In this document: one piece after another, positions 21,126-44,409 of the stretch
Position numbering within the stretch: the stretch's first letter is position 1
How the letters are laid out: the number at the start of each line of letters is the position of its first letter
Source: Patescibacteria group bacterium
GTDB taxonomy: Bacteria > Patescibacteriota > Microgenomatia > UBA1400 > MFAQ01
Reading direction: 5' to 3'
NCBI GenBank assembly: GCA_943355005.1
Contig: CALRDV010000001.1
Coordinates: 242,059-306,058, forward strand
Length of the DNA stretch: 64,000 nucleotides
Translations under genes and position numbers: made by a program
The notes under the pieces: model-generated
What the model saw: only the letters and a program-made list of their open reading frames with translations
What the model was told of the DNA's origin: nothing
Database searches by the model: none

Positions 21126-21129
21126 GATG

Positions 21130-29209: not shown

Positions 29210-29220
29210 AAGTTACCTAA

Positions 29221-29901: not shown

Positions 29902-29947
29902 ATGTATGAAGAAATCGTGAGCTTAGGATTAATTCCGGGTGAAGAAA

Positions 29948-30046
29948 TTACTTTCCATTTTCTTCAAGAACTAAATCCATGCCACATTTTGGGCACTTAC
30001 CCGGCTCATCTTCTCTCACTTCCGGATGCATTGAGCAGGTATACAT
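29948..30046 (-). CDS. 32-aa free-standing heavy-metal-binding-domain mini-protein ([32 protein letters not shown])
   Basis: ATG..TAA ORF starting 2 nt after the DUF305 stop. It is about 70% identical to the N-terminal HMBD of the ATPase at 26432-28675. It is below the ORF-track length cutoff. Confidence 0.5.
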
Positions 30047-30048
30047 AT

Positions 30049-30696: not shown

Positions 30697-30767
30697 CCTC
30701 CTTAAGTTTCCAGATATAACAAGTCTTATCCCATCATACTACACGGGAGGAAATATGTTTCAAAGAG

Positions 30768-31157: not shown

Positions 31158-31181
31158 ATAATTAATTTTACCGATTTAGTT

Positions 31182-31201
31182 ATTAAGAATTTATGAAGAT
31201 A
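31182..31201. promoter_or_regulatory. Island motif copy 2: ATTAAGAATTTATGAAGATA, upstream of the cupredoxin-like gene
   Basis: 18/20 match to the consensus. Confidence 0.55.
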
Positions 31202-31204
31202 GAG

Positions 31205-31432
31205 CTAGTGCTTATGTCCGCCATTTCGCATCATTAATATATGCATGAGTGGGCATGCTAGTATTGCTCCAAAGTACACCACATTTGTTAGTGGTACTGC
31301 GAATACTTTAACTGCTATTAATATCACCACAGCTACTCCTAGGCATATAAGCAGCCATTTTGTCTTTTTTTGAGTATTCTCATTGGTTGAATGATCCATT
31401 TTTGAATGATCCATATCTAACCTCCTTACCAT
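31205..31432 (-). CDS. DUF2933-like small membrane protein (ACPLMHILMMRNGGHKH)
   Basis: One TM segment and the C-terminal CPLMH..MM..GH motif typical of metal-island DUF2933 proteins. Confidence 0.5.
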   Translation of the reverse strand: MVRRLDMDHSKMDHSTNENTQKKTKWLLICLGVAVVILIAVKVFAVPLTNVVYFGAILACPLMHILMMRNGGHKH

Positions 31433-31449
31433 GATTATAGAAAAGACCA

Positions 31450-31469
31450 GATTAAGAAAGTATGAAGAT
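31450..31469. promoter_or_regulatory. Island motif copy 3: ATTAAGAAAGTATGAAGATT, upstream of the DUF2933 gene
   Basis: 17/20 match. Confidence 0.55.
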
Positions 31470-32929
31470 TAGGACTTGGCTTTCAGAGGAAGCGATATGG
31501 TGACGTGTGTTCCCTTACCGACTTTGCTTGCTATTGAAATAGTGCCACCGTGGGACTCTATGATTCCTTGAGCAATTGCGAGTCCAAGACCTGAGCCAAG
31601 TGTTTTAGCAGTTTTTGACCCACGATAGAAACGGTCGAATATATGGGGTAGGTCTTTTTCTAGAATGCCATTGCCTGAATCAATAACTTCAACCACCGCC
31701 TCACTGTTTTTGGTACGCAGAAAAATAGAAATTGTCTCATTCTTCGGCGTATATTTCACTGCGTTATCGAGGATATTAAGAATTGCGCGGGAAAGTTTGT
31801 CTTCTGATCCGGTAACCTGAATGCCTTCGGCAATATGACTTTTGACCGTGATATGTTTTTGAGCGGCTAGTTTGACGGCAATATCTTTCAGTTCCACAAG
31901 TACAGCCGTAAGATCAGTTTGTTGATTCGTACTTATTGCCTTGTCGGCGCCGATCCACGCTAAATCGAGAATGTTTCTGATCGTAGTAGACAATCGATTG
32001 ACATCGATAAGTGTTTCTCCAAACGCATTTTTATATTCCTCATTCGTGCGTTTTTTTGACAACGCTAACTCAATTTCTCCTTTTAACGTAGCTACTGGTG
32101 TTTTCAGTTCATGGGCAACGTCACCGATAAATTGACGTTCTCTTTTAAAAGATTCGTGAAGTCTTTGGAGTAATTCGTTAAACGTTACTGCAAGTTCTGA
32201 CACTTCATCTTCGGTATTGGGAACAGCTACGTGTCGATTCAAATCTTGGCTAGTAATTGATTGGAGGTCTGAAGATATCTTCTGAATCGGTTGTAAGGCG
32301 CTTTTTGCCAGTAAATAGCTCCCGATTATTGCAGGGATTGCGATAAGGAGATAAACCGCGGTCAGAGTCAAAATCAGGCTTTTGAAGGAGTCGTAGATTG
32401 CATCAACCGGATCACCCATAAAAATAAGACCGTTCGATTCACCATTTTGTATTATGGGGAATACGCCAATCCGGAGTGTTGTTGTGCCAATACGGCGTTC
32501 TACAAAGGTAGGTTTTATGATATTACTGGACTTTTCAATAAGGTCTTTAAGTATAGTATTTTCGTCCGCTCCGACTTGAGAACTGCCCGTAATTTTCCCG
32601 GATTTGTCGGTAATAAGGACGAGCATTCCCGGCATTTCCATAAATTGCTGACTAATAATTCCTTGGTTAAAAACTCCTTGAGCCATGCTCGGCTGTTCAT
32701 CTCCCACCATCTTCGTTAGCGTTTCTGCATGGGCAATGATCGAACGGTCTGTTTGGTTAAGAAGTGTCTGCTTGGTGATGTAGAAAAATACGGCAAAAAC
32801 AATAGCTGTACTGACAAAGAAAGCAATTGAATACCAAAGTGTTAGACGAAATCGGATTGATTTTTTATTCATGTTATCCAATCTTATACCCCACGCCGTG
32901 AACGGTCTGGATAAGCTTAACCTTTGCAC
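31469..32929 (-). CDS. Sensor histidine kinase (two TM segments, periplasmic domain, HAMP, HisKA, HATPase_c). The likely start is at 32872.
   Basis: H-box VAHELKTP and G1/G2 boxes (DSGNGI, GSGLGLAIA). Confidence 0.85.
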   Translation of the reverse strand: MQRLSLSRPFTAWGIRLDNMNKKSIRFRLTLWYSIAFFVSTAIVFAVFFYITKQTLLNQTDRSIIAHAETLTKMVGDEQPSMAQGVFNQGIISQQFMEMPGMLVLITDKSGKITGSSQVGADENTILKDLIEKSSNIIKPTFVERRIGTTTLRIGVFPIIQNGESNGLIFMGDPVDAIYDSFKSLILTLTAVYLLIAIPAIIGSYLLAKSALQPIQKISSDLQSITSQDLNRHVAVPNTEDEVSELAVTFNELLQRLHESFKRERQFIGDVAHELKTPVATLKGEIELALSKKRTNEEYKNAFGETLIDVNRLSTTIRNILDLAWIGADKAISTNQQTDLTAVLVELKDIAVKLAAQKHITVKSHIAEGIQVTGSEDKLSRAILNILDNAVKYTPKNETISIFLRTKNSEAVVEVIDSGNGILEKDLPHIFDRFYRGSKTAKTLGSGLGLAIAQGIIESHGGTISIASKVGKGTHVTISLPLKAKS

Positions 32930-33539
32930 CGGTATCTACTTTTTTCCTGAGAGTGCCGACAAACACATCAACCACGTTACTCATACCATCAAAATTGTAA
33001 TCCCAGACATGCTCGATAATCATCGTACGTGATACGACTTCTCCCTTATGGCGCATAAGGAGCTCAAGAACCGCAAATTCTTTCGGGGTGAGGGTGATAG
33101 CCTTATTCGCTCTTTGCACACTGTGTTTTAGTGGATCGAGAATAAGATCATTTTCAGACAAAATCGGTGATATATCCTGATGACTGCGGCGAATGAGGGC
33201 GTGTACTCGTGAGCGAAACTCAACGAAAGAGAATGGCTTGGTTATATAGTCGTCAGCACCGCTATCAAGTCCGGCGACTTTATCTTCTAATGTAGATTTA
33301 GCGGTGAGCATAAGCACAGGGGTCTTAATACTCTTTTTACGCAGTTCTTTACACACTTGTAGACCGTCAAGTTTGGGAAGCATGATATCGAGCACAATAA
33401 GGTCGTACTGCTCACTTTCGGCCAAATATTGACCTTCTTCACCGTCAAATGCTTGATCAACAGCAAAGCCGTCCTCGATAAAACCCTTTTTGATGATATT
33501 GGAGAGACGACGTTCGTCTTCGACAATTAAGACTCTCAT
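32874..33539 (-). CDS. OmpR-family response regulator (REC domain plus winged helix)
   Basis: MRVLIVEDE...DIMLPKLDG...; C-terminal trans_reg_C domain. Confidence 0.9.
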   Translation of the reverse strand: MRVLIVEDERRLSNIIKKGFIEDGFAVDQAFDGEEGQYLAESEQYDLIVLDIMLPKLDGLQVCKELRKKSIKTPVLMLTAKSTLEDKVAGLDSGADDYITKPFSFVEFRSRVHALIRRSHQDISPILSENDLILDPLKHSVQRANKAITLTPKEFAVLELLMRHKGEVVSRTMIIEHVWDYNFDGMSNVVDVFVGTLRKKVDTGAKVKLIQTVHGVGYKIG

Positions 33540-33550
33540 GAATCTATTAT

Positions 33551-33580
33551 ATTAAAAATTCATGAAGAAATCATTAAGAC
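33551..33580. promoter_or_regulatory. Island motif copy 4: ATTAAAAATTCATGAAGAAA plus a third half-site (TCATTAAGAC), upstream of the response-regulator gene
   Basis: Three AAGA-type half-sites at about 11-bp phasing. Confidence 0.5.
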
Positions 33581-33592
33581 TCGGTTTTAGGT

Positions 33593-33859
33593 CTACTTTT
33601 TTAGAAAGCTGTTATAGCTTGCGGCAAAGAGATAACCAGCAACCCACGCGGACGCGACCGCCGATATTAGCCCCACGATAAAGTTCCCTGTTGATATGCT
33701 CCAAGAGCCAATCGTGAGCCCATGGAACCAGGATTGTGCAATAGACATCATAAGATCAGGAAATAGACCGACCAACAGTCTACATACTACGTAGATAATA
33801 CCGACCGTTGTTGCGGCTGCGTTTGCTGTGGTCATAGGATTATGTTTCATGATGTTCAC
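33593..33859 (-). CDS. Small membrane protein, unknown
   Basis: ORF with two hydrophobic helices. Confidence 0.25.
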   Translation of the reverse strand: MNIMKHNPMTTANAAATTVGIIYVVCRLLVGLFPDLMMSIAQSWFHGLTIGSWSISTGNFIVGLISAVASAWVAGYLFAASYNSFLKK

Positions 33860-34358
33860 CTCCCTCTATACGAATAAAATATTTTTGCGTTCCGTAGAGC
33901 ATTTGTTGGACACACCATTTGGCATACCATCCGCTTAACAGCTTGCCAAGCCAGACGAAAGATTTTGGCAATTCATAGTCAATGGATACGGTAAGCTTAG
34001 AGCCCGAGCCATCAGGTTCAATTTCTACTTTCATCTGATACTGACCGATGATGAGAAGCTTTGGAGTGCCGACTGTTTTCCAAACCTTACGGTGTGGTGG
34101 AACATGCTCAGTTACCACTTCGTCCAGCGATATATAGATTCCAAACACTTTGCCGTCCATTTTGATATGAGATCCTACAGCCTTCCCTTTAAGCTCATCA
34201 ACATAGGTGTTCATTTTGCCGCCACCCATCATTGGACTTGCGGTATTCATGTGGGAGGAAAATTTATTATGGTCGTCGATATAATCAAATACTTCAGAAG
34301 GGGCAGCTAAAATCTTTGCGCTTTCACTATATGTGCGAACCTTCGATTGTGATGTCAT
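33840..34358 (-). CDS. SRPBCC-like hypothetical protein
   Basis: Weak fold-level resemblance. Confidence 0.35.
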   Translation of the reverse strand: MTSQSKVRTYSESAKILAAPSEVFDYIDDHNKFSSHMNTASPMMGGGKMNTYVDELKGKAVGSHIKMDGKVFGIYISLDEVVTEHVPPHRKVWKTVGTPKLLIIGQYQMKVEIEPDGSGSKLTVSIDYELPKSFVWLGKLLSGWYAKWCVQQMLYGTQKYFIRIEGGEHHET

Positions 34359-34361
34359 AGG

Positions 34362-34664
34362 TTAGGACTTATCTAGTTCTTTAATCATAATATCAGGAAT
34401 TTCCCCAATAGTGGATGTTGATAGTCGGTAATACATATTTTTCCCATCCCGTCTTGACGTTACTATGCCTACATTTTTTAATACCATGAGATGTTGTGAA
34501 ATATTTGATTGTCGATACTTCATGAAACTAACGAGCTCGTGCACATTTAATTCTTGCTTTCTCAGTAGCGACACTATGTTAAGACGCTTAGCATTAGCAA
34601 AGGCCTTAAAGATTTGCAATTCCTTTGTAAACATTACTGAAGTCATATGACTTAGACTCCACAT
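34362..34664 (-). CDS. ArsR/SmtB-family transcriptional regulator with no Cys residues
   Basis: A winged HTH typical of ArsR. There is no canonical Cys metal site. Confidence 0.7.
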   Translation of the reverse strand: MWSLSHMTSVMFTKELQIFKAFANAKRLNIVSLLRKQELNVHELVSFMKYRQSNISQHLMVLKNVGIVTSRRDGKNMYYRLSTSTIGEIPDIMIKELDKS

Positions 34665-35626
34665 CCACCACCTTGTTTAGGTGGTTGTTGTATAAGGCCT
34701 TTATCAGCTAACCATTGCTTGGCACTTTGCCAACCGGAAGCAGAAGAATAGTCTTTGCTTAATAAGGTTTTCGCATCAATATCTTTGAATGACTTACCCT
34801 CTTTGTTCTGAAAGTAGAGCGCCAAATCGTAATAATTGCCAGGGAACCAGAATGCATTCACATATTTAGCAGCTTCATACATTTCTTTTTCGGTTGCGCC
34901 ATTACTGGCCATGAGTTGCAGTACTCCTAAAAGTGCCATCCCGTGATTGCAGTCTGGAAATGCGGTCGAATTATTACAGCACGGTCTATAGATGTTTGAG
35001 GCCACCTGCTCAACTAATGCTTCCTGTTCTTTTGTAAGCGGAATGAGGGTAGATTTAGAGTAATAGTTCATGGCATTTCCCTTTGAGAGACTCCAACCAC
35101 CGGTTGAAGCAAAGTTGCCGGCACCCTCTTTGCCACCATATTTGATCATTTCTCCTTCATCTAAAATCTTAGATTTGTTAGCCAGCCCTACCGCCCAGAA
35201 GTAATTAAGGAGAAAATATGAATTCTCTCGAGTAATGGATATTGTCTCATCTGAACCTTTTGAGAGTATCAGCTCTTGCTCTGGAGTGAGTGGTTGATTG
35301 GACTTTTCATAAGTGTTTTTAAACTTGTCCGGATCGATAACTCCCATTGCAATCATTTTCGGACCGAGCTGGCCATAACTAGCATTAATTTTGAAGCCTG
35401 AAACAGGATTTACTTCGTCAAATACGTTGTCTTTATTTGCAGTCGATACTTGTGTTGTAGTTGATTTACTCACTGACTTAAACCCATTTGCTCTCCATAT
35501 TGATAACTTTGGGGCAAGTAAGACGGCTGCAAGAACAGTATTGGCTACGACACTGACGAGAAGGATTGGGAATAATTTATTTTTCACCTTGGCCTCCTTT
35601 GTAGCGCAGCAGTTTATAAAAGGCAT
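34652..35626 (-). CDS. Secreted Cys-containing protein of unknown function
   Basis: A signal anchor, CC/CN..C motifs and a C-terminal GGGCGV. Confidence 0.3.
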   Translation of the reverse strand: MPFINCCATKEAKVKNKLFPILLVSVVANTVLAAVLLAPKLSIWRANGFKSVSKSTTTQVSTANKDNVFDEVNPVSGFKINASYGQLGPKMIAMGVIDPDKFKNTYEKSNQPLTPEQELILSKGSDETISITRENSYFLLNYFWAVGLANKSKILDEGEMIKYGGKEGAGNFASTGGWSLSKGNAMNYYSKSTLIPLTKEQEALVEQVASNIYRPCCNNSTAFPDCNHGMALLGVLQLMASNGATEKEMYEAAKYVNAFWFPGNYYDLALYFQNKEGKSFKDIDAKTLLSKDYSSASGWQSAKQWLADKGLIQQPPKQGGGCGV

Positions 35627-36404
35627 ACAGGACTATTCCAAACACTGCCAGGTCAACCAGTGGGTTTTGGAAATATTTGGCGATCTCAAAAACAATCATT
35701 CGGATTTTTATGCTGTAGGGCTCCATCTGATTCATTTGAATCTTGCCAAGGTAATTAAAAATAGCAATCAGTATGCCTGTCAGGAAAAAGATTCCGGCTC
35801 CCAGATTTTTTAGTACCGTGTAGATTTTCTGCCTATTGGCCCCCGTGACTTTTCCAGTAGCTTTCTCATAGCACATCGACATGATAAAGAGGGGCATCAC
35901 GATACCAACGACATAGGCAAGAGATACTATTAATGCCTGGAATAGCGAAGGTGAAAGCGACGTTAACGTTACTGCGGCAAAAAGGACAGGCGCACAGCAG
36001 GCTGAGGTAAGGCCAGACATAAGGCCTAATCCAAACACACTTGCTGTATTTACTTTCTTGCCCTGTAATCCAGAGACGTGGAAAAACTGTGGCAAGTGAA
36101 AGACGGGTTTTAAGGTCATAACACCCATGAGTATCATGATGAGGGCTCCTAGATAGTAGATGGGTGTGTGATATGCATCTAAGAAAAATATAGCTGAACG
36201 AATGCCTAGCGCGATGGGAACGAGCACGAATGCGAGACCAAGCGCAAAGATAAGCGTGTAGTACATGATCCGTCCTCGTTCTTTAAAGATTGTGCCTAGA
36301 TATGAGGGCAGTAGGAACGTAATACAGCATGGGGCAAATAATGCCAAAACTCCCGCGAGGAACGAGGCCGTTAACGAGATGCCGAAGAGAAAGTTTGTAT
36401 CCAT
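35577..36404 (-). CDS. CcdA/DsbD-family membrane protein with paired Cys (PCC, ACCAP)
   Basis: Six to eight TM segments with Cys pairs in TM1 and TM4. Confidence 0.5.
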   Translation of the reverse strand: MDTNFLFGISLTASFLAGVLALFAPCCITFLLPSYLGTIFKERGRIMYYTLIFALGLAFVLVPIALGIRSAIFFLDAYHTPIYYLGALIMILMGVMTLKPVFHLPQFFHVSGLQGKKVNTASVFGLGLMSGLTSACCAPVLFAAVTLTSLSPSLFQALIVSLAYVVGIVMPLFIMSMCYEKATGKVTGANRQKIYTVLKNLGAGIFFLTGILIAIFNYLGKIQMNQMEPYSIKIRMIVFEIAKYFQNPLVDLAVFGIVLYAFYKLLRYKGGQGEK

Positions 36405-36406
36405 AG

Positions 36407-36904
36407 TTATTTGACCTTTGCCGTAATGCTAAATATCAATTTCGAGTTTGCAGGATCATTGGTCTCTACATATACTTCGCGTTCAACTAGCCCGTACACC
36501 GGCATTGAGGCTGGCCTGTAGGTTAGACGAATGGTGGCGGTATCACCTGGGGCAATTTCGGTGACAAACCCGCTCTGGGTATGCATGCTGTACTCTTTAC
36601 TGGTTTTACCTTGGTAGATAATCTGTCCGGCAGTACAGCCGCAACTTGAATTAACATTCAGGATTTGTAGTGGCTTGGTACCAGCGTTCTTAACTGTGTA
36701 GTCTTCAACTTTAACATCAGACACTTTTATCTCACCAAGATTTCTTGAAGTATTACTCGTTTCAGCCTTAGGGCGATCGGTGTCTTGCGTTGCAAATGAA
36801 GCTGTTGCAGGAGTAGGTGTCTGACCGGCAGTCAAAAGAAAAGCAATTCCAACAACCGAGGCTATAAAGACGAGCATCCAGATAATTAACGTTTTTGGTG
36901 ACAT
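36407..36904 (-). CDS. DUF1573 domain protein (CGCT motif)
   Basis: A TM anchor and SSCGCTAGQI, typical of DUF1573. Confidence 0.6.
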   Translation of the reverse strand: MSPKTLIIWMLVFIASVVGIAFLLTAGQTPTPATASFATQDTDRPKAETSNTSRNLGEIKVSDVKVEDYTVKNAGTKPLQILNVNSSCGCTAGQIIYQGKTSKEYSMHTQSGFVTEIAPGDTATIRLTYRPASMPVYGLVEREVYVETNDPANSKLIFSITAKVK

Positions 36905-36905
36905 A

Positions 36906-37199
36906 TTAGTTTATATAATTAAATGTTTTTATAAATTCAGTAATATTTTGTTGCGATTCGTCTGGTTTATGTTGTTTCTTTAATCTATTTGCTATGCAAA
37001 CCACAAGGTGATGAATGGCTAATCGGCGGTTCACATACCTCAATTGCGTCATGGCAACTACTAATTGCGTGTGTGCTAATTCCCAATCAATTCCGGCTTC
37101 CATTTGATCAATTAATTTACTGACAATATCCTTTACCAAACGTAATCTTCGGATCAATTCCTGCTTATCTAGGTCTTGAGACTTGATATTCATAGTCAA
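36906..37199 (-). CDS. Hypothetical small protein
   Basis: ORF. It is the first gene of an operon preceded by motif copy 5. Confidence 0.3.
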   Translation of the reverse strand: MTMNIKSQDLDKQELIRRLRLVKDIVSKLIDQMEAGIDWELAHTQLVVAMTQLRYVNRRLAIHHLVVCIANRLKKQHKPDESQQNITEFIKTFNYIN

Positions 37200-37216
37200 A
37201 TCGTACTCCTGCCGAT

Positions 37217-37236
37217 ATTAAGATTTTATGAAGATT
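37217..37236. promoter_or_regulatory. Island motif copy 5: ATTAAGATTTTATGAAGATT, upstream of the DUF1573/CcdA/ArsR operon
   Basis: Exact 20-mer identical to copy 1. Confidence 0.6.
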
Positions 37237-37252
37237 ACTAAGGCAGTTAAGA

Positions 37253-37273
37253 AGGGGTCTTACCCCTCTTTTT
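37253..37273 (+). terminator. Hairpin (AGGGGT-CTT-ACCCCT) plus a T-run
   Basis: Read directly. It is plus-strand oriented and lies 17 nt after motif copy 5. Confidence 0.4.
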
Positions 37274-37356
37274 GCAAGGGTTTTCGCTTCGCTTCAATAA
37301 ACTTCGTTTCACTACGCCCTTGCAAAATTTCACCCTGCTTTGGGTTCCCCTGGTAT

Positions 37357-37378
37357 GGGAAGCATGGGCATGCTTCCC
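37357..37378. repeat. Perfect 10-bp-arm palindrome GGGAAGCATG-GG-CATGCTTCCC in the non-coding region preceding the DUF2958-like gene
   Basis: Read directly. A larger IR (GCAAGGG...CCCTTGC) lies at 37274-37323. Confidence 0.4.
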
Positions 37379-37421
37379 AACTATTAATTTTCGGGAAGAA
37401 GCCAAAAGGAGGTGAGAAATT

Positions 37422-37736
37422 ATGAAACTACTTACAAAAGGACTACTAGAGAGGTTTGCCAAGCTAGGCAGACAAGAAGACAGCAGCGATCCTGTTGTGG
37501 TTGCGAAATTCTTTAACCCAACAGGCGCGGGTACATGGTACGCGACCGAATACGACCCAGAAGAGAAAATATTCTTCGGTTATGTCTCGATTTTTGGAGA
37601 CTGGAACGACGAATGGGGTTCTTTTTCTCTGGATGAGCTGGAAAGCTATCGCGGCCAGTTAGGTTTAGGGATAGAGCGAGATCTCTACTTTGGGGAAAAG
37701 AGAATTAGTGAGGTTATGCCAAAAGCAAAATTATAA
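37422..37736 (+). CDS. DUF2958-like protein (conjugative-element associated)
   Basis: FFNPTGAGTWYATEYD...FGYVSIFG...SL.ELE..RG.LGL.IERDL pattern and a strong RBS (AAAGGAGGTG). Confidence 0.45.
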   Translation: MKLLTKGLLERFAKLGRQEDSSDPVVVAKFFNPTGAGTWYATEYDPEEKIFFGYVSIFGDWNDEWGSFSLDELESYRGQLGLGIERDLYFGEKRISEVMPKAKL

Positions 37737-37746
37737 ATATTGGATC

Positions 37747-37772
37747 CACCGCGGGGCCCCAACCCCGCGGAT
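37747..37772. terminator. GC-rich hairpin CCGCGGGG-CCCCAA-CCCCGCGG
   Basis: A perfect 8-bp stem. It is intergenic if the downstream gene starts at 37797. Confidence 0.3.
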
Positions 37773-37796
37773 GGGTATTCAAGAAAGGAAAAATAT

Positions 37797-37995
37797 GATC
37801 AGAATATTACCAGTTTTTAAAGGTTACACTGTGGATATGCGGTTGCAGGAGTTTCGTAAAATTGAAATGGATAAATTGCCCGAGTTTATTCCATTCCTTA
37901 GTGATAAAGGGGCCGAATTATTTTATGAGTTCCGCCAGACGGAAGAAGGACGTAAAGAGCTGAATAGGTTCCTCGGACGAAGTGAAGATTACTAG
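37797..37995 (+). CDS. Small hypothetical protein (MIRILPVFKGY...), with an AGGAAA RBS
   Basis: ORF with an RBS. The longer track ORF reads through the upstream hairpin. Confidence 0.3.
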
Positions 37996-38018
37996 CTTAA
38001 AAGGTCTATAATAAAGGC

Positions 38019-38516
38019 ATGATTAAGAAAATAAGCCTATTGATCGTACTTTTATTGTTGGTATCTGGTGGATATAATTTCTTCACCAAACCCAACGAAG
38101 AAAATTTTAAAGCTCCTGGGAAAGACTGGGAATCAGCCAAAAAGGTAGAAGATTATTTCATTGAGCGCCTTAATATGTCCGTAGCCGAGGCAGAGCAAAT
38201 TAGATCGAAGCCAGGAGTAGACGGAACAGCAGATTTAAGGATTAGTACAGAGGTTACACTCGACGCTCTTATAGGGAATCTTTTCTATTACGGCTTTGTA
38301 CGAGACGAAAAAGCATTCAGATACGCTTTGGAACACACAAAAGACACCACGCCAAGCGATAAAGCAATTAAAGTGGGCAAGGATGGCACAATAGATACCA
38401 ACGCAGAATATAGAATTTCAGAAAACATGACTGCCTGGGAAATGGCTGATCTACTCTTGAACAAACCCGCCGGACACTTTCCATTTGATGAATATAACTA
38501 TTTCTTCATGCCGTAG
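38019..38516 (+). CDS. Secreted hypothetical protein
   Basis: A signal peptide and ORF. Confidence 0.3.
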   Translation: MIKKISLLIVLLLLVSGGYNFFTKPNEENFKAPGKDWESAKKVEDYFIERLNMSVAEAEQIRSKPGVDGTADLRISTEVTLDALIGNLFYYGFVRDEKAFRYALEHTKDTTPSDKAIKVGKDGTIDTNAEYRISENMTAWEMADLLLNKPAGHFPFDEYNYFFMP

Positions 38517-39287
38517 TTAGTCATTTTCTACTTTAACTTTGTATAACACTTCTCTTAATAAGCCTTTGGATTTTATATCCGATCTTAACGAGAGATAAAA
38601 CGATAATTCAGGACTTTGCTCTAGCTGCTTTTGAATTTGAAGGTTTGTATAGTTATATGATCTTGTATCCGGACATGCAAGGATAATTGCCGGAAAGGCA
38701 TTTTTGTTATGATCCTGCCAGTAGGCATTTTCAAAGTATTGAAAATATTGGCGGATACGTTTTCTTATCACCATTCTGGCTGGGAGTTCATCAAATACAT
38801 CGAGAAAGTAACTTTTTTTGTTCCCGTTCGGTTCTTCTATAGAAAAATAGGCATCTGGATGAGGCAATATCAGATACTTTAAACCCAGTAGATCAGTCTT
38901 AGTGTAGAAATGTAACTTTGCCCCAGTAGTTTTGACGAGCTTTACAAGGGATAAATAGCAATCTGCTATAAACAGGCAATGTTCGCGAAATTGATTTGAT
39001 AAGGTATGCTCTCTCCAGACTCTATCAAGAACCGTTAATTTAATCTGTTTAAGCTCTGGATTATCTTTTAAATATTTTCTTCCTTTAAGTCCTAGTGAAT
39101 ATACTGCGGGTAAAGTAACAGTTTTAGGGTTGTAGTAACGTCGGATATGTTCAGATGCGGTAAGTTGATCGAGCCAGATAATAATGCGATTAAATTGTTT
39201 ATGATTAAGTAATTGTTGAATATGGTTTCTATTTAAGAATCGGAATTTGTAGAGATGTAGTAGTATGTGATCTTGTTGTGTGTTCAT
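38517..39287 (-). CDS. Replication-relaxation (Replic_Relax) family protein
   Basis: N-terminal ILLHLYKFRFLNRNHIQQL, typical of Replic_Relax proteins in conjugative or integrative elements. Confidence 0.55.
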   Translation of the reverse strand: MNTQQDHILLHLYKFRFLNRNHIQQLLNHKQFNRIIIWLDQLTASEHIRRYYNPKTVTLPAVYSLGLKGRKYLKDNPELKQIKLTVLDRVWREHTLSNQFREHCLFIADCYLSLVKLVKTTGAKLHFYTKTDLLGLKYLILPHPDAYFSIEEPNGNKKSYFLDVFDELPARMVIRKRIRQYFQYFENAYWQDHNKNAFPAIILACPDTRSYNYTNLQIQKQLEQSPELSFYLSLRSDIKSKGLLREVLYKVKVEND

Positions 39288-39406
39288 GGTTGTTAGATAG
39301 TATTAATTATTCCATTCTCTTCCTTATATATAAGGAATATAGATGTAGGGATTTTGATTGTATTTAGCCTTAAGATATCGCATTTTCAGTGTAAACACGC
39401 TTACAC

Positions 39407-42316
39407 TCATAGCAATGACCCCACATCGTCGGTTGATTCAATCTTTTTAGATGATTTTTTAGTTTTTAGCTCTGATTGAACAGTTTTGCGAAGAGTTTTT
39501 TTATATACTGATGCATAGTTTTTTCTAGACTCAACAATGAGTCGTTCCACCCTGTCTTCATCCTTAATAAGCACCATTGGTAGTGTTTCTCCTGAAAACG
39601 GTTCTTCGGGCTCAACGGCTGAGAGCTTGAGATAAAATTTATACCGAGGGAGATTGACGATGTCATGCTGATCTACATACGGAGCAAATTGAGCGATCAT
39701 TAACTGTTCATCGATTGGACTTGCTGTCCTAAAACAGATTACCGTCCCTGTATTGGCCAAGATCACGTTTGTGATATTTCGATCTTCCTGCTGAGAAGTT
39801 GATTGCTCGGCAATGGTAAGGCGAAGACCAAATTTTCTCCCGCCAGATAAGAGCCTGGTGAATGAGGTGGTCGCGAAGTTCTGGAATTCATCGATAAAGA
39901 GATAAAAGGGTTTTCGCTCATTCTTGTTTGTCCTCACACGACGCATAGCCGCTTGTTGGAGTTTGGCAATGATCGTTGTGCCAAGTAACTGAGAGGTATC
40001 TTCTCCCAACTTTCCTTCGGCCAGATTACAAATTAAAATCTTACCTGAGTTGAGTATCTCGTCAAAATTAATCGTTGAGTTTGGTTGCTCAAGAATGCGT
40101 TTGGCCGTTGGAGAAAAGAGAAATCTTCCTACTCTCGCCGTCACTCCTGAAACCATTTTGACGATCTGGTAGTTGCCTGCCCTGCCAAACTCATTTTTCC
40201 AGAAGTTCTCGAGATTTTCGTCTTCAAGATTCTTTGTGACGCTTTTTTGAAATTTAGGATCATTGAGAAGGTCATAGACTGTGAATATGGTGGCATCCTT
40301 AATCGTAAAGGCCGTGTAGATGGTGTTTCTAAGGATGTATTCAATTCGGTGGGCATCGGTGTTTTCATCTTTTGAGAAAACTCGACGAAACACTGAGATT
40401 ACGCTTTCACAGACTAATTCTTTTTCCTGCTCTAGGTCGTCTTCCTTAAGCCCAGGTGTTAGCTCAAGCAGATTAACTCCAACGGGATAGCGTAAATCGA
40501 ACGGATTGAAGTAAATACAATCTCCTATGCGACTATCAGGCACCGTGGTTAACAAATCCTCTGCTAGATCGCCATGTGGATCGATAATCGCCACACCACG
40601 ACCTTTATTGATATCGTCTTTGGCCATATGGAACATGATCGTAGACTTACCCGAGCCCGTTTGACCGATGATATAGACATGGCGCGATCGATCATCATCT
40701 GTTAGACCTATGTCGGAGTCACTATTGCCGTAGGTATTCTTGCCAAAGATCACATCGAAAGCCGTATTGTTTTTAATTGATAACGGAGCCGGCAGCTCTC
40801 GACTATGAACTTTGACCATGTCTTCGATTTTCGACCCATCGGTATTAGGAAAATGATAAATGTCCGATACTTCTGAGGTTGAGAGAATTGGGTTTGCATT
40901 CAGAGATGTACTTAATGACAACTGCCGAAGCTTAAATTGCTTCAAAGCATGACTGTGACTCGATAATATCGAGTGTTTTACTACAAAGGTTTGATAAGGG
41001 CTTCCAAGCTGACCAAATGCCGCCAGAAGCCCGTTAAGCCTTGTACTGGCCTCGTCACCATTTGCCGAGACAACCAACACCCGAATCGATGTCTCAAAGA
41101 GTTTTTGATCTATTTTCTCCTTGATAATCTGGGATAGCTCTTTTTCATAGGGATTAAGTATATCCATGGGGAGAGTAATCCTTGGTGCCATTAAAAATGG
41201 CACAGACTTACCACTGGTATCGAATAGTCCAATAAACATACTGAAAACAAACATGGCGACAAACGACAATACCTTCCAAGTTGCTTGTATAAGAAACCAA
41301 ATGAGAGAAATTCCTGGTAAAGACACAAACTTCTGGAATGCACTCTTTTGAACAGCTTCCGTTAATGGTTGGCCATTATAGATACGAGAACGCAGGGATA
41401 GAATCTCAGCTATCACGTCCTTCTGGATTGATGTCAGTACTGGACTGATAACAACTTGGCAGGAGATTAGCTCACCTGGAAGTAATTTTGTCATGTTGCC
41501 GGTTAGATACGAGATAGGATCACTTTCTATGATTGTTGTTTGGGATTGAAGAGGTAGGGCAAAATGACTCGATAACTTTAATTCGATAATACCGACAGAC
41601 TTTTTATCTGCATTCTCGACCAAGGATCCAAGATAGTCGTTCATTTCACTTACCTTGATACCAGGTAGATAGGATCGAAGATTACGACTAATCGTCTCAA
41701 TAAATTTTGGTGAGGCTGCCAATACGTAGCGAATGCCTTCTTTCTTGGTGGAGACAATTTCTAGCGAATATTCGTTCTTTTGTTGAACAACGCTTTCCCA
41801 GAAGGAATGTTGTTTTGAGAGTGTGTGAAGAAGTGAGTACAGCTGCTCTGTCGCAAAAGCAGATTTATCCGTATCTGCGGGAAAGGTTAATTGGAGTAGC
41901 TTTTTTTCAGTCGCTCGTTTACCAAATTGTGACAGTATCCAGGGAATGACCACTCTCATTATCCACAGCAACAGAGATATAAGAGCAAATATAGCTATGA
42001 TGACCATAACTGGCCCTATAGTTATTAGAAGTGTGAGTTGTATTGGCGATACTTCTGGAAGTGGTAAAGATGTAAGCCAATGGTATATTTCGAGCTTCTT
42101 TGAAGTTGAAACCGGAAGCGCCATAGAAATGGAAAGTAAATACGCGTGGATATTAGAGATCTGATGATTTTGAACCTGTTGAATCAACTGCTGTAACTGA
42201 GAGTCCTGAGTGGTCATATTAACCCTCCCAGTGGCCACCAGTGGCAATATATGTGGATCGCTTGATTGTTTGTCATACCTGCCGTTACCTTCATAACTTG
42301 GGCAGGGAATTAACAA
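39407..42316 (-). CDS. FtsK/HerA-superfamily ATPase with N-terminal TM segments: putative T4SS coupling protein (TraD/TcpA-like)
   Basis: Walker A GQTGSGKST, Walker B LFIDEFQNF, two N-terminal TM helices, 969 aa. Confidence 0.6.
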   Translation of the reverse strand: MLIPCPSYEGNGRYDKQSSDPHILPLVATGRVNMTTQDSQLQQLIQQVQNHQISNIHAYLLSISMALPVSTSKKLEIYHWLTSLPLPEVSPIQLTLLITIGPVMVIIAIFALISLLLWIMRVVIPWILSQFGKRATEKKLLQLTFPADTDKSAFATEQLYSLLHTLSKQHSFWESVVQQKNEYSLEIVSTKKEGIRYVLAASPKFIETISRNLRSYLPGIKVSEMNDYLGSLVENADKKSVGIIELKLSSHFALPLQSQTTIIESDPISYLTGNMTKLLPGELISCQVVISPVLTSIQKDVIAEILSLRSRIYNGQPLTEAVQKSAFQKFVSLPGISLIWFLIQATWKVLSFVAMFVFSMFIGLFDTSGKSVPFLMAPRITLPMDILNPYEKELSQIIKEKIDQKLFETSIRVLVVSANGDEASTRLNGLLAAFGQLGSPYQTFVVKHSILSSHSHALKQFKLRQLSLSTSLNANPILSTSEVSDIYHFPNTDGSKIEDMVKVHSRELPAPLSIKNNTAFDVIFGKNTYGNSDSDIGLTDDDRSRHVYIIGQTGSGKSTIMFHMAKDDINKGRGVAIIDPHGDLAEDLLTTVPDSRIGDCIYFNPFDLRYPVGVNLLELTPGLKEDDLEQEKELVCESVISVFRRVFSKDENTDAHRIEYILRNTIYTAFTIKDATIFTVYDLLNDPKFQKSVTKNLEDENLENFWKNEFGRAGNYQIVKMVSGVTARVGRFLFSPTAKRILEQPNSTINFDEILNSGKILICNLAEGKLGEDTSQLLGTTIIAKLQQAAMRRVRTNKNERKPFYLFIDEFQNFATTSFTRLLSGGRKFGLRLTIAEQSTSQQEDRNITNVILANTGTVICFRTASPIDEQLMIAQFAPYVDQHDIVNLPRYKFYLKLSAVEPEEPFSGETLPMVLIKDEDRVERLIVESRKNYASVYKKTLRKTVQSELKTKKSSKKIESTDDVGSLL

Positions 42317-42455
42317 AGATTATATCGAACTATATCAAGTATTGAAAGAGAAGAAAAGCGCTCAATATGAGGGTAAATAAAGCGCTTGACATTATCCCTA
42401 GAGGGATAGTATATTATCTCTATAGGCATAATGATAATTTAAGAGAATACAGATA

Positions 42456-42628
42456 TGGGACGAATAAAAGGTTCAACAAATAAGACTTCTACAAGCAGAG
42501 TAATAGCTTCAACCTTATCACCTTCCGAGCGCGTTCAATTTATTGCTAATTTAATCATTGATCGAATTATTAAAGATCAAAATAACGGCAAACCACTGCT
42601 CAAGAAATTATCTATAGAACAATTATGA
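42456..42628 (+). CDS. 57-aa small ORF translationally coupled (ATGA overlap) to the serine recombinase; possible HTH/recombination directionality factor
   Basis: ATG..TGA ORF below the track cutoff. Its stop overlaps the recombinase start. Confidence 0.3.
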
Positions 42629-44409
42629 ATACAAATTTTAAACTTGATAACGCCGTCGCAGCGATTCGCATATCATCCGTTAAACAGAGTGTAGAAGGAG
42701 ATTCTCCAGAAGCTCAAAAAGAACAGATCGAGCGATACGCTCAAGCTCACAACATTCACATTAAAAAGATTTTTATATTTTTAGAGTCAGCCTCCAAAGA
42801 GCAACAACCTGTACAAGAGGCTATTGATTACTGTAAAAACCCTAAAAACGACATCCAGTTATTCGTCATTAAATCTATCGACCGATTCACCCGAGGAGGA
42901 TCATTTTTCTATGAAGAATTAAAAATGCAGCTTGATAAATGCAAAGTTAGGTTAATCGATATATACGGAGTTATCGGACAGCAACAAGTAAATACGCTTG
43001 AGCACTTAGGGCTCTCATTTAAATGGAGCGTGTACTCACCGACCAAGAAATCTGAAATGCTTGAGGCCGAACGTGCTAAAGACGAGATGCGTGACATCAT
43101 GAGTCGTATGATAGGGGCCGAAATCCGCTATTCTCGAATGGGTTACTGGGTGCGGAATGCGCCATTTGGATTTGTAAATGAAAAAATAGAAACGCCAAAT
43201 GGTAAACGAGTCATATTAAAGCCACATCCCGTAGAATCTGCTTGGATTATAAAAATGTTTGAGCTACGCTGTCGTGGGACGCTAGGCGATTATCAGATCG
43301 TTGACGAGATAAATAATCTAGGCTTCAAAACAAGAATTATGCACTTCCGAGACCCTCGTGACCGCACAAAGATTATTAAGGAAAAAGGTAGTAAAAAACT
43401 TAACATTAAGGGGTTTTGGAGATATATCAAAAACCCACTCTATGCAGGTATAAACCTCACGAGCTGGACTAAAGAAAATCCTCAAAAAGGTCATTTTGAC
43501 GGCTTGGTCTCAATTGAAACATTTAATAAAGCCAATCGAGGCAAAATATCTATTATCGAAGAAAATAATGGCATAAAGATCTACAAGAAGCGACCGCCTG
43601 AATACTTAATTAATAAAGGTGCAAGAAATCCTGATTTTCCATACAAACGCATCGTCTTATGTCCACATTGTGAGAAACCACTCTTTGGGAGTGCCTCACG
43701 GGGTCATTTGGGTAAGTATTACCCGGCATATCACTGCAACAAACGTGGCCATTACTTTAGAGTCCGTAAAAAGGACTTTGACGAGACTATTACGAAGTTT
43801 GTGAAAAACATACACCTAGCTGATGGATACTCTGATGCGTTGGTCAAAGCAGTGATTGATGAATGGGAGAAACGCCAGAAAGAGTCGAGTACAGATAATG
43901 TAAATATTGACGCCAAAATCACAGATCTAAAAGCCCAAGCGAAGCTTACGGCTGACAAAATAAAGTATGTAACGTCTGAGGTTGCTATGAAATACATCGA
44001 AGAAGAATTAGTGAAAAATGATCAAGAGATTTCAGGACTTTTGGCTGAAAAACAAAAAGCTATACAAGAAAAACCATCAGATATACACGTTGTCATGGCC
44101 TACATAAAATATTTTCTGGAACACCTAGAAGATTTGTTGATACATAGCACTGATCCTGTTGCTAAGGCATCACATTTCGGGGTACTTTTCGACCGAGCGC
44201 CGACATATCAAGAAATAGTTTCTGGAACCGGTGAATTTGCCCAATGTATCGCACTAAACGAGGTCTTTGCACTTTCAAAAACCAACTTAGTGACCCCGGC
44301 GGGAGTCGAACCCGCGATCTTTTGGATGAGAACCAAATGTCCTGGACCACTAGACGACGGGGCCGTCAGTCTACGCTCCTATTTTATCATCCCGAAGCGG
44401 GTGGACTAA
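42625..44409 (+). CDS. Large serine recombinase (resolvase N-domain, recombinase domain, zinc ribbon)
   Basis: Catalytic AIRISSVKQS, a recombinase domain and C-x2-C...H-C zinc ribbon. The C-terminal 40 codons overlap the tRNA-Glu on the opposite strand. Confidence 0.85.
   Translation: MNTNFKLDNAVAAIRISSVKQSVEGDSPEAQKEQIERYAQAHNIHIKKIFIFLESASKEQQPVQEAIDYCKNPKNDIQLFVIKSIDRFTRGGSFFYEELKMQLDKCKVRLIDIYGVIGQQQVNTLEHLGLSFKWSVYSPTKKSEMLEAERAKDEMRDIMSRMIGAEIRYSRMGYWVRNAPFGFVNEKIETPNGKRVILKPHPVESAWIIKMFELRCRGTLGDYQIVDEINNLGFKTRIMHFRDPRDRTKIIKEKGSKKLNIKGFWRYIKNPLYAGINLTSWTKENPQKGHFDGLVSIETFNKANRGKISIIEENNGIKIYKKRPPEYLINKGARNPDFPYKRIVLCPHCEKPLFGSASRGHLGKYYPAYHCNKRGHYFRVRKKDFDETITKFVKNIHLADGYSDALVKAVIDEWEKRQKESSTDNVNIDAKITDLKAQAKLTADKIKYVTSEVAMKYIEEELVKNDQEISGLLAEKQKAIQEKPSDIHVVMAYIKYFLEHLEDLLIHSTDPVAKASHFGVLFDRAPTYQEIVSGTGEFAQCIALNEVFALSKTNLVTPAGVEPAIFWMRTKCPGPLDDGAVSLRSYFIIPKRVD
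44291..44364 (-). tRNA. tRNA-Glu (anticodon CUC)
   Basis: Manual fold. The acceptor stem GGCCCCG/CGGGGUC has one G-U pair. The D-loop is AGUGGUCCAGG. The anticodon stem UUUGG/CCAAA has loop UUCUCAU. The T-arm is GCGGG-UUCGACU-CCCGC, and the discriminator is A. Confidence 0.8.

What the first reader, a model, noticed from the sequence alone, without database searches (positions are those of the whole stretch)
37422..44409. Integrative-element module whose serine recombinase gene overlaps a tRNA-Glu on the opposite strand
DUF2958-like, Replic_Relax and an FtsK/HerA-type coupling ATPase are followed by a small ORF coupled to a large serine recombinase. The last 120 nt of the recombinase ORF run antisense through tRNA-Glu(CUC) at 44291-44364. 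The tRNA 3' end faces the element, as expected for integration into a tRNA gene. Tyrosine integrases commonly use tRNA targets; large serine recombinases do so less often, which makes this att configuration worth defining. The metal island, and possibly the defense island, may be cargo.
Basis: partly seen in the sequence, partly recalled or inferred. Interest (0 to 1): 0.6.

Follow-up and report, generated by a model that had tools for sequence, protein, structure and literature searches.

The report
Serine-recombinase mobile element capping a tRNA gene
This is the integrase end of a mobilizable genomic island from a Patescibacteria (CPR) bacterium. Its large serine recombinase gene ends exactly inside the last six bases of tRNA-Glu, so the element rebuilds the tRNA when it integrates, and this layout recurs across hundreds of related elements.

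Summary
ORF 42625-44409 (+) is a divergent large serine recombinase (LSR), and its last 120 nt run antisense through an intact tRNA-Glu(CUC) at 44290-44364 (-).

This is not chance. In 60 of 67 related loci with enough sequence, the LSR 3' end overlaps an intact antisense tRNA (Glu, Gln, Lys, Arg, Asp, Asn, Ser or Val).

The same LSR (at least 90% identical) occurs in four contexts: tRNA-Glu(CUC), tRNA-Glu(UUC), tRNA-Lys(CUU) and a non-tRNA site. All four are identical up to ...AACTTAGTGA (window 44293) and unrelated after it. The element therefore ends at 44293 and supplies tRNA nucleotides 71-76. The LSR has no stop codon of its own and reads into host DNA, giving a predicted disordered tail.

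The conserved backbone is 37253-44293. It holds a structured non-coding block, DUF2958, a MobC-type relaxase, a VirD4-like coupling ATPase, a 57-aa ORF and the LSR. This is an integrative mobilizable element with no secretion system of its own.

The metal-resistance island to the left very probably travels with it. The true left end was not found within 52 kb. No long repeat of the tRNA 3' end exists, as expected for a serine recombinase.

I rate it a new variant of a known kind. The closest precedents are streptococcal IME class 8 and the Dehalococcoides ssrA islands.

The parts
37253..37421 (+). Conserved structured non-coding block that opens the backbone. It has a hairpin GGGGTCTTACCCC followed by a T-run (terminator-like), a long stem TTTTGCAAGGG/CCCTTGCAAAA enclosing a variable hairpin, a hairpin GGGAAGCATG/CATGCTTCCC, and a CACCC motif able to pair with the DUF2958 Shine-Dalgarno sequence. 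It is a candidate oriT and/or leader RNA.
   Evidence: Sequence homology among at least 20 loci starts sharply at 37253, and the sequence upstream is unrelated. Compensatory changes occur in all three stems. The DNA fold has z = -4.3. The first hairpin is flagged as terminator-like.
37422..37736 (+). DUF2958 protein (104 aa)
   Evidence: Pfam PF11171, E = 8.7e-20. A homologue is present in 23 of 48 related loci with at least 6.5 kb upstream.
37837..38516 (+). Two variable small ORFs: 52 aa as called in the source assembly, or 101 aa from 37690, and a 165-aa ORF at 38019-38516. Function unknown.
   Evidence: No Pfam or NCBIfam hits. Both are absent from L001 and present in L002, L098, L005 and L039.
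38517..39287 (-). MobC-superfamily relaxase (Replic_Relax, 256 aa)
   Evidence: Pfam PF13814 scores 37 bits against a cut-off of 25.3. PF13814 equals the MobC superfamily according to PMC5357655. A homologue is present in 43 of 48 related loci.
39407..42316 (-). VirD4/TraD-like type IV coupling ATPase (969 aa) with a long N-terminal extension
   Evidence: Pfam TrwB_AAD_bind, DUF87 and TraG-D_C all score above their cut-offs. NCBIfam gives sub-threshold similarity to CedD, TraD and the VirD4-like CD1115 family. A homologue is present in 36 of 48 related loci.
42386..42415 (+). Promoter-like site TTGACA-18-TATATT for the orf57-LSR operon. The perfect palindrome TATCCCTAGAGGGATA lies between the hexamers and overlaps a weaker minus-strand promoter for the coupling-protein and relaxase operon. 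It is a likely shared operator.
   Evidence: The promoter and terminator scan gives an 11 of 12 match and flags the palindrome. The equivalent region of L001 matches this one in inverted orientation.
42455..42628 (+). 57-aa basic ORF translationally coupled (ATGA) to the LSR. It is a candidate directionality or regulatory factor.
   Evidence: A homologue lies directly upstream of the LSR in 31 of 48 loci. No family hit.
42625..44293 (+). Element-encoded part of the large serine recombinase (aa 1-556). The last roughly 60 nt double as the P arm of the attachment site.
   Evidence: Pfam Resolvase scores 33.2 bits against a cut-off of 23.3. R15, S17, D86, R87 and R90 are invariant. The AlphaFold model shows catalytic, recombinase, zinc-ribbon and coiled-coil parts, and Foldseek matches full-length serine integrase complexes at E = 1.8e-15. 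The last 63 nt are identical in four loci whose genes are otherwise 91-93% identical.
44288..44293 (+). TAGTGA, the element-borne copy of tRNA nucleotides 76-71 (read as U71 C72 A73 C74 U75 A76 on the tRNA strand). The crossover lies at or just inside its right edge.
   Evidence: The four-context alignment is identical through 44293 and diverges after it. Independent pairs L048/L039/L074 and L055/L056 agree.
44290..44364 (-). tRNA-Glu(CUC). It is intact, with a 7/7 acceptor stem that includes G2-U71. Its encoded 3' end reads CUA instead of CCA.
44294..44409 (+). Host-encoded read-through tail of the LSR ORF (aa 557-594), antisense to the tRNA and its 5' flank
   Evidence: pLDDT is below 50 for residues 557-594. 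The tail differs in each of the four contexts, giving proteins of 594, 567, 589 and 593 aa.
10437..37252 (-). Metal-resistance island, probable cargo. It holds three P-type ATPases, DsbD/cupredoxin proteins, DsbA-like thioredoxins, a CopY/BlaR-like pair, two DUF305 genes, a two-component system, and ArsR- and CsoR-like regulators. Co-mobility is shown for 32332-37252 and inferred further left.
   Evidence: Pfam annotation. L002 shares 32332-44293 at 91% identity at another tRNA. L087-L093 link homologous metal genes to the same backbone.

Best explanation
Window 37253-44293 is the conserved integration and mobilization backbone, at the right-hand end, of an integrative mobilizable element (IME) of a Patescibacteria/CPR bacterium.

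Shown:
- The element's large serine recombinase gene is its outermost gene. The last roughly 60 nt of the gene form one arm of the attachment site and end in TAGTGA, a copy of the last six nucleotides (71-76) of tRNAs that have G1, G2 and discriminator A.
- The element DNA stops at 44293, inside tRNA-Glu(CUC), and the tRNA is intact.
- The same element sits at tRNA-Glu(UUC) and tRNA-Lys(CUU) elsewhere, with the same junction.
- The recombinase ORF has no stop codon before the junction. Its C-terminal tail therefore depends on the neighbouring DNA.

Inferred:
- The recombinase pairs this arm with the tRNA 3' end and reads the universally conserved T-arm DNA as the other half-site.
- It exchanges strands at a dinucleotide around tRNA positions 71-73. 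The chimeric tRNA keeps a full acceptor stem and is finished by 3' trimming and CCA addition.
- After excision, the MobC-type relaxase nicks an oriT, possibly the structured block at 37253-37421. The VirD4-like coupling ATPase then hands the DNA to a type IV secretion system encoded elsewhere, because none is on the element.
- Cargo, here metal resistance, lies to the left of the structured block. The left attachment site lies further left and was not located.
For: - Family-wide association: 60 of 67 loci have an intact antisense tRNA at the LSR 3' end. The C-terminal peptides of the homologues are tRNA antisense translations.
- Mobility and exact junction: the alignment of four contexts is identical to 44293 and diverges after it. 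All four LSRs belong to one cluster at 90% identity.
- Att-site constraint: the last 63 nt are identical in all four, although the genes are 91-93% identical overall.
- Arm matches target identity: Glu and Lys junctions end TGGTGA or TAGTGA, while Gln junctions end TGGCTG, which fits U1:A72 and G73.
- LSR architecture: Pfam Resolvase, invariant catalytic residues, the AlphaFold model and Foldseek hits to serine integrase-att complexes.
- No other recombinase lies between 10.4 and 44.3 kb.
- Mobilization module: the MobC relaxase and coupling protein are linked to the LSR in 43 and 36 of 48 loci.
- No VirB4 or mating-pair genes were seen among the annotated genes of the window or in the further left flank shown by L083.
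- Cargo.
- The right flank holds core host genes, including GreA, SerRS and SecA.
Against: - The left end (attL) was not found. No excised or empty-site sequence was recovered: the pattern scans gave 0 hits in viral contigs and one chance hit in metagenome contigs.
- The exact crossover dinucleotide is bounded only on its right side.
- Recombinase, relaxase and oriT activities are all inferred from homology.
- Seven of 67 loci lack a detectable tRNA at the junction.
- The reconstructed arms show no obvious dyad symmetry, which LSR sites usually have.
- The host's secretion system was not seen, because it lies outside the available sequence.
Confidence: 0.8

Rival explanations
1. The mobile element is only the 7-kb unit 37253-44293. 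Under this reading the left edge of the structured block is attL. The metal and defence islands would be older, independent islands that happen to lie next to the same tRNA hotspot, and are at most co-mobilized by accretion.
For: Homology among at least 20 loci begins sharply at 37253, and the upstream sequence is unrelated. The window has GA immediately before the block and GA at the right junction. The block is duplicated in L005, L043 and L045, and contigs L001 and L098 break inside it. Accretion with cis-mobilization is known for LSR islands at ssrA (PMC3146451).
Against: L002 carries 5 kb of the same metal island plus the backbone at 91% identity at a different tRNA with a different host flank. 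Metal genes are linked to the backbone again in L087 and L088, with only 29 nt between an ATPase gene and the block in L088. In ten other loci the genes upstream of the block are accessory or defence genes, never core genes. In the other loci the dinucleotide before the block is mostly TA or AA, which does not match the junction dinucleotide at their tRNA.
Confidence: 0.15
2. The tRNA belongs to the element as a cargo tRNA. The true attachment site would be elsewhere, and the overlap would simply reflect compact gene packing.
For: Mobile elements sometimes carry tRNA genes. The blastn match between the window and L002 runs through the whole tRNA.
Against: The tRNAs next to the same LSR differ: Glu-CUC, Glu-UUC, Lys-CUU, or none. 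Similarity stops at tRNA nucleotide 71. Core host genes follow directly after the tRNA. The window-to-L002 match across the tRNA reflects only the similarity between two tRNA-Glu genes.
Confidence: 0.03
3. The overlap is an ORF-calling artefact or coincidence. The recombinase would be a resolvase or invertase unrelated to the tRNA.
For: Sequence similarity to characterized LSRs is weak. The Pfam Zn_ribbon_recom match is below threshold, phmmer finds nothing in the PDB, and the NCBIfam CcrB match scores only 19 bits.
Against: 60 of 67 loci show the same arrangement. The fold matches full-length serine integrases. The junction is identical at three tRNAs.
Confidence: 0.01

Closest known systems
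Streptococcal IME class 8 (Coluzzi et al. 2017, PMC5357655)
   Same: Both have a compact module of a VirD4-type coupling protein, a MobC (PF13814 Replic_Relax) relaxase and a serine integrase at one end facing outward. Neither has a secretion system of its own.
   Different: According to that paper, the serine-integrase IMEs that could be placed insert into protein-coding genes (rumA and ICE genes). Here the target is the extreme 3' end of tRNA genes and the tRNA is preserved. The host phylum differs (Patescibacteria), and the LSR is very divergent, with no tblastn hit in the plasmid or phage collections.
Dehalococcoides ssrA-specific genomic islands with the CcrB-like serine recombinase DsiB (McMurdie et al. 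2011, PMC3146451)
   Same: In both, a large serine recombinase sits at the island edge next to a tRNA-like RNA gene, insertion is in the 3' part of that gene, the cargo is variable, and the islands are proposed to be integrative mobilizable elements.
   Different: The ssrA islands target the single tmRNA gene in the T-loop and leave a 20-bp direct repeat. They also carry a second small serine recombinase, DsiA. Here many canonical tRNA genes are used, the crossover is at nucleotides 71-73, only 6 nt are duplicated in function, and no 16-24 nt repeat is present in 52 kb. There is no DsiA-like partner, but there is a MobC relaxase and a coupling protein. The recombinase ORF runs through the RNA gene.
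Tyrosine-integrase genomic islands, ICEs and prophages at tRNA 3' ends
   Same: Both preserve the tRNA by having the element supply a copy of the tRNA 3' end. In both, the integrase gene lies next to the tRNA and the tRNA 3' end faces the element.
   Different: The enzyme family and chemistry differ. Tyrosine systems have identity segments of 15 to more than 45 bp that give detectable direct repeats. No tyrosine recombinase is present here.
Fusellovirus SSV1-type integrases, whose attP lies inside the integrase gene (from general knowledge, not tested here)
   Same: In both, the attachment site lies within the recombinase coding sequence, so integration changes the gene product.
   Different: SSV1 uses a tyrosine integrase, and integration splits the gene into two parts. 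Here only the dispensable C-terminal tail beyond residue 556 is exchanged.

Membership tests
Large serine recombinases (serine integrases) | N-terminal resolvase-type catalytic domain with the nucleophilic serine and conserved arginines | tested here: met
   Pfam PF00239 scores 33.2 bits against a cut-off of 23.3. R15, S17, D86, R87 and R90 are invariant in 28 homologues.
Large serine recombinases (serine integrases) | C-terminal recombinase domain, zinc ribbon and coiled-coil | tested here: met
   The AlphaFold model has a well-predicted domain at 183-330, a Cys/His-rich beta ribbon at 346-381 and long helices at 402-480. Foldseek matches full-length serine integrase-att complexes 9y66, 9dxh, 9dxd and Bxb1 9iu2 over about 570 columns at E = 1.8e-15. 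Some homologues hit Pfam Recombinase PF07508. The sequence-level Zn_ribbon_recom match is below threshold.
Large serine recombinases (serine integrases) | Short att sites that share only a central dinucleotide, with no long direct repeats flanking the element | tested here: inconclusive
   No repeat of the tRNA 3' end exists in 52 kb, which is consistent with this feature. However, attL, attP and attB were not recovered, so the core could not be defined.
Large serine recombinases (serine integrases) | Demonstrated integration and excision activity | not testable with these tools
   There is only comparative evidence: the same element sits at three tRNAs with an identical junction.
Integrative mobilizable elements (IMEs) | Own integrase plus a relaxase, with or without a coupling protein, and no mating-pair formation genes | tested here: met
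   An LSR, a MobC relaxase and a coupling protein are present. No VirB4 or other secretion-system component was found among the annotated genes of the window or in the further left flank shown by L083.
Integrative mobilizable elements (IMEs) | Defined attL and attR, with an excisable circular form | tested here: not met
   The right junction is defined at 44293. The left end was not found. Scans for an attP-type junction returned nothing usable.
Integrative mobilizable elements (IMEs) | A functional oriT | not testable with these tools
   The candidate is the conserved structured block at 37253-37421. It cannot be told apart from a leader RNA or a terminator.
MobC relaxase superfamily | Match to PF13814 (Replic_Relax) above the curated threshold | tested here: met
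   37 bits against a cut-off of 25.3, covering profile positions 2-188 of 191. The equivalence of PF13814 and MobC comes from PMC5357655.
tRNA-targeting islands of the tyrosine-integrase type | A tyrosine recombinase and a direct repeat of at least about 15 nt of the tRNA 3' end at the distal boundary | tested here: not met
   No Phage_integrase-type protein was found. No repeat was found.
Dehalococcoides-type ssrA islands (DsiB/DsiA) | tmRNA gene target, 20-bp direct repeat and a paired small serine recombinase | tested here: not met
   The target is a tRNA, no repeat is present, and there is no second resolvase-domain gene in the backbone.

The most novel reading that the evidence does not exclude
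The last two conserved codons of this recombinase family (Leu-Val or Leu-Ala, TTR-GTG-A or TTG-GCT-G) may double as an antisense copy of the tRNA CCA end, discriminator and positions 72/71. If so, a few base changes inside the recombinase's own coding sequence would re-aim the element at a different class of tRNA, while the protein reads the universal T-arm as its constant half-site. That would be a naturally retargetable serine integrase.

The same elements carry a MobC relaxase and a coupling protein. They could therefore be the missing DNA-transfer clients of the type IV secretion systems that are widespread in Patescibacteria and usually lack a relaxase.
Probability: 0.35. Interest if true: 0.8.

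Novelty: new variant of a known kind. Interest (0 to 1): 0.62.

Why it matters
1. In the cases I read, serine integrases of integrative elements insert into protein-coding genes or intergenic sites, while tRNA genes are used by tyrosine integrases. This family is large and conserved, with at least 331 loci among species-representative genomes and more than 1,700 protein hits. It systematically uses tRNA 3' ends without leaving a long repeat. Repeat-based island finders will therefore miss these elements.

2. The attachment arm lies inside the recombinase gene, and the gene lacks its own stop codon. Its annotated C-terminus is therefore partly host tRNA antisense, which is a source of misannotation. 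One homologue is even named 'NUDIX hydrolase' by its source.

3. A 2025 survey (PMC12102498) found type IV secretion systems across Patescibacteria but few relaxases, and left open whether these systems conjugate. Here MobC relaxases and coupling proteins sit on mobile islands that carry metal-resistance cargo and probably defence cargo. The copper ATPases are about 80% identical across many CPR lineages. This makes conjugative mobilization in CPR directly testable.

4. Serine integrases with a tRNA-defined target that may be retargetable could be of interest as genome-engineering tools.

Tried and rejected
- Direct repeat of the tRNA 3' end. I searched a 30-mer with up to 3 mismatches in the window, and 12-24-mers with up to 5 mismatches over 52 kb including the extra left flank L083. 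Nothing was found beyond the tRNA itself.
- L001's downstream sequence (ACTATCTGTCCC...) as a candidate P' arm. It has no match in the window, L083 or L002. A shared 10-mer with L028 is compatible with chance.
- attP-type junction, meaning an LSR 3' end followed directly by the structured block. There were 0 hits in viral contigs, and one unrelated high-GC hit in metagenome contigs.
- Block left edge as attL. I rejected this because the dinucleotide there does not match the junction dinucleotide in the other loci, and because cargo co-travels with the backbone.
- Empty-site search by all-against-all comparison of the 80 loci. Several pairs share right flanks, but none shares a left host flank.
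- Extending the source contig further left.
- The two recombinases to the left of the window as tandem-accretion markers. Their 3' ends carry normal stop codons and no tRNA-like remnant.
- A second 'block' in L028. It lies inside an ORF and is a chance motif match.
- Direct sequence searches of the LSR against the PDB, plasmid and phage collections found nothing. A profile search of the PDB gave only marginal hits.
- Strand of the block structure. RNA folding energies of the two strands differ too little to decide, -56.6 against -61.2 kcal/mol.
Full report
**Observation**

ARAGORN finds a single tRNA in the window, tRNA-Glu(CUC), at 44290-44364 on the minus strand. Rfam scores it at 64.3 bits. 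ORF 42625-44409 on the plus strand (594 aa) covers it completely. Codon 556 begins at 44290, so the last 120 nt of the ORF are antisense to the tRNA and to 45 nt of its 5' flank.

- DUF2958 at 37422-37736.
- Replic_Relax at 38517-39287.
- A 969-aa ATPase at 39407-42316 with TrwB_AAD_bind, DUF87/HerA and TraG-D_C matches.
- A Resolvase domain in the 594-aa ORF.

A 57-aa ORF (42455-42628) overlaps the recombinase start by ATGA. The relaxase and the ATPase are on the minus strand, divergent from the orf57-recombinase operon. The intergenic region holds a near-consensus promoter (TTGACA-18-TATATT, 42386-42415) with the perfect palindrome TATCCCTAGAGGGATA between its hexamers.

**The overlap is a family trait**

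The recombinase has more than 1,700 database relatives at 55-97% identity, almost all from Patescibacteria (CPR) metagenomes. In an alignment of 28 of them, conservation ends at residue 555. After that most sequences carry tails such as LAxxxGFEPxxxSExxVLPLDD. GFEP is the antisense reading of the tRNA T-loop (GGTTCGAA).

Of the 120 best hits, about 85% have such tails, in one of two reading frames. A scan of species-representative genomes found 331 loci, and I fetched the best 80. Counting the window, 60 of 67 loci with at least 100 nt after the recombinase match have a minus-strand tRNA overlapping the recombinase 3' end. The tRNAs are Glu, Gln, Lys, Arg, Asp, Asn, Ser or Val, and every one has a complete 7-bp acceptor stem.

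**The recombinase is a true large serine recombinase, but a divergent one**

Sequence searches against the PDB, plasmid and phage collections gave nothing significant. The catalytic residues R15, S17, D86, R87 and R90 are invariant.

An AlphaFold model (mean pLDDT 68.7) shows a catalytic domain, a long helix, a confident recombinase domain, a zinc ribbon and a coiled-coil. Foldseek aligns about 570 columns to full-length serine integrase-att complexes and to Bxb1, at E = 1.8e-15. The tRNA-encoded tail, residues 557-594, has pLDDT below 50.

**Exact right end of the element**

The cluster at 90% identity that contains the window's recombinase has members in four contexts:
- The window: tRNA-Glu(CUC), followed by GreA, SerRS and SecA.
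- L002: tRNA-Glu(UUC), followed by a gene that looks like lgt.
- L098: tRNA-Lys(CUU), followed by tRNA-Arg and other genes.
- L001: no tRNA.

Aligned, all four are identical through ...CAAAAACCAACTTAGTGA (window 44293). After that they read CCCCGGCGGG, CCCCACCGGG, GCGCAGGAGG and ACTATCTGTC.

The element DNA therefore ends at 44293 and contributes tRNA nucleotides 71-76 (U71 C72 A73 C74 U75 A76). Both chimeric tRNAs examined, tRNA-Glu in the window and tRNA-Lys in L098, keep G1-C72 and G2-U71. The encoded CCA reads CUA, so 3' trimming and CCA addition must be assumed.

Two other sets of related loci agree, because their shared arms end in TGGTG(A): L048/L039/L074 and L055/L056. Elements at tRNA-Gln have junctions ending TGGCTG, which reproduces the U1:A72 and G73 identity of tRNA-Gln. 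In those loci I could not separate element sequence from host sequence.

The last 63 nt of the gene are identical in all four contexts, although the genes are 91-93% identical overall. This fits a double constraint, as coding sequence and as attachment arm.

No family member has a stop codon before the junction. The four near-identical recombinases have four different tails and lengths of 594, 567, 589 and 593 aa.

**No long repeat**

Nothing resembling 12-30 nt of the tRNA 3' end occurs in the 52 kb to the left of the tRNA, which is the window plus 7.7 kb obtained from the source contig. For a tyrosine integrase this would argue against integration. For a serine recombinase, which needs only a central dinucleotide, it does not.

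**Backbone and its left edge**

Similarity to more than 20 other loci starts abruptly at 37253 with AGGGGTCTTACCCCTC. The 169-nt block before DUF2958 folds into three parts:
- A terminator-like hairpin.
- A long stem enclosing a variable hairpin.
- A third hairpin.

Compensatory changes occur in each part, and a CACCC motif can pair with the DUF2958 ribosome-binding site.

Among 48 loci with at least 6.5 kb upstream of the recombinase, a MobC-type relaxase homologue is present in 43, the coupling ATPase in 36, DUF2958 in 23 and the 57-aa ORF in 31. PF13814 corresponds to the MobC relaxase superfamily (PMC5357655).

No secretion-system genes were seen in the window or in the further left flank shown by L083. 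The element is therefore an integrative mobilizable element.

**Is 37253 the element's end?**

I first thought so, but the evidence favours a module boundary with cargo to its left:
- L002 shares window 32332-44293 at 91% identity while sitting at a different tRNA with a different host flank.
- Contigs found through the copper ATPase again place metal-resistance genes directly to the left of the same block and backbone, in a different order and with extra ars genes (L087-L093).
- The genes upstream of the block in ten other loci are restriction, helicase, transposase and other accessory genes, never core genes.
- The dinucleotide before the block in the other loci does not match their tRNA-side junction.

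The left attachment site was not found. The element is at least 12 kb. Linkage suggests about 30 kb or more, and it may include the defence island at 1-10365, because a DUF3644 homologue lies inside the L005 element. Two further serine recombinases lie 2.6-7.3 kb beyond the window's left edge. They have ordinary stop codons and no tRNA-like remnants.

**Comparison with known systems**

The gene module matches streptococcal IME class 8, which has a VirD4 coupling protein, a MobC relaxase and a serine integrase. According to that paper, the serine-integrase IMEs that could be placed insert into protein-coding genes, and all tRNA targets there belong to tyrosine integrases (PMC5357655).

The nearest precedent for the target is the Dehalococcoides ssrA islands. 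There a CcrB-like serine recombinase inserts in the tmRNA gene and leaves a 20-bp repeat and tandem islands (PMC3146451).

Eight full-text literature searches found no description of this CPR family or of serine recombinases at canonical tRNA genes. A 2025 survey of Patescibacteria secretion systems reports few relaxases, mostly MOBC and often next to t4cp, and does not mention recombinases or tRNAs (PMC12102498).

**Verdict**

What remains open is the left end, the exact crossover dinucleotide, the role of the structured block, and all biochemical activities.

Noticed in passing
window 26390-26409, 31181-31200, 37216-37235: A 20-nt motif, TATTAAGATTTTATGAAGAT, occurs three times, each just upstream (on the minus strand) of a metal-resistance operon. 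At 37250-37223 it coincides with a promoter-like site (TTAACT-16-TAAAAT). It is probably a shared promoter or operator of the metal genes.
   Followed up: partly
window 1-10365 and L083 5879-10008: A defence island. It holds HATPase_c_3, Z1, DUF4420 (PD-(D/E)XK) and AIPR genes followed by a C5 cytosine methylase, then an AspBHI-N/Mrr-type endonuclease, DUF2779 and DUF3644. A DUF3644 homologue (68% nt identity) lies inside the related element in L005, the WWE3 RAAC2 complete genome.
   Followed up: partly
L083 367-1692 and 3663-5132 (2.6-7.3 kb left of window position 1): Two more large serine recombinases (441 and 489 aa, with standard Recombinase and, in the 441-aa one, Zn-ribbon domains) lie here with SLFN_AlbA_2 and PLD-like genes. 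Relatives of the 441-aa enzyme sit at the end of restriction-modification and SNF2/PLD islands in other contigs (L094). Their target sites are unknown.
   Followed up: partly
window 37253-37421; L005 1392 and 3713; L043 4223, 4820 and 5722; L045 4276 and 5480: The first-hairpin motif of the block recurs in some loci: twice in L005 and L045 and three times in L043. The second L005 copy matches only the first 92 nt of the block. Contigs L001 and L098 begin inside the block. Together these suggest recombination or population heterogeneity at this point.
   Followed up: partly
L098 7120-7170: Next to the occupied tRNA-Lys lies an orphan fragment that repeats the 5' part of that tRNA (ctctaccgttgagctatgcg...) without a 3' part. 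It may be a remnant of an earlier recombination event.
   Followed up: no
window 26432-28675 (copper P-type ATPase): More than 100 homologues at 78-93% identity are spread over many CPR lineages, including Roizman-, Woese-, Davies-, Levy-, Gottesman- and Amesbacteria. That is much closer than expected for such diverged hosts, and it points to recent horizontal spread of the metal island.
   Followed up: no
window 10754-11383 and 30049-30696; 28549-28644 and 29959-30054; 14039-15943, 21197-24340 and 26432-28675: The metal island contains internal paralogues: two DUF305 genes, two copies of a Cys-rich N-terminal segment, and three P-type ATPases. Parts of it are inverted relative to related islands.
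   Followed up: no
L039 10001-12100; L011, L041 and L056 junctions: Seven loci lack a detectable tRNA at the recombinase 3' end. In L039 the ORF runs on to 700 aa into a neighbouring gene. L011 and L041 both have TCGAAAAAATTCGAAC after the junction, and L056 looks like a tRNA with an internal deletion. These may be decayed or secondary sites.
   Followed up: partly
protein P0008: One homologue of the recombinase, from the WWE3 RAAC2 complete genome, is named 'NUDIX hydrolase' by its source. This is very likely a misannotation.
   Followed up: no
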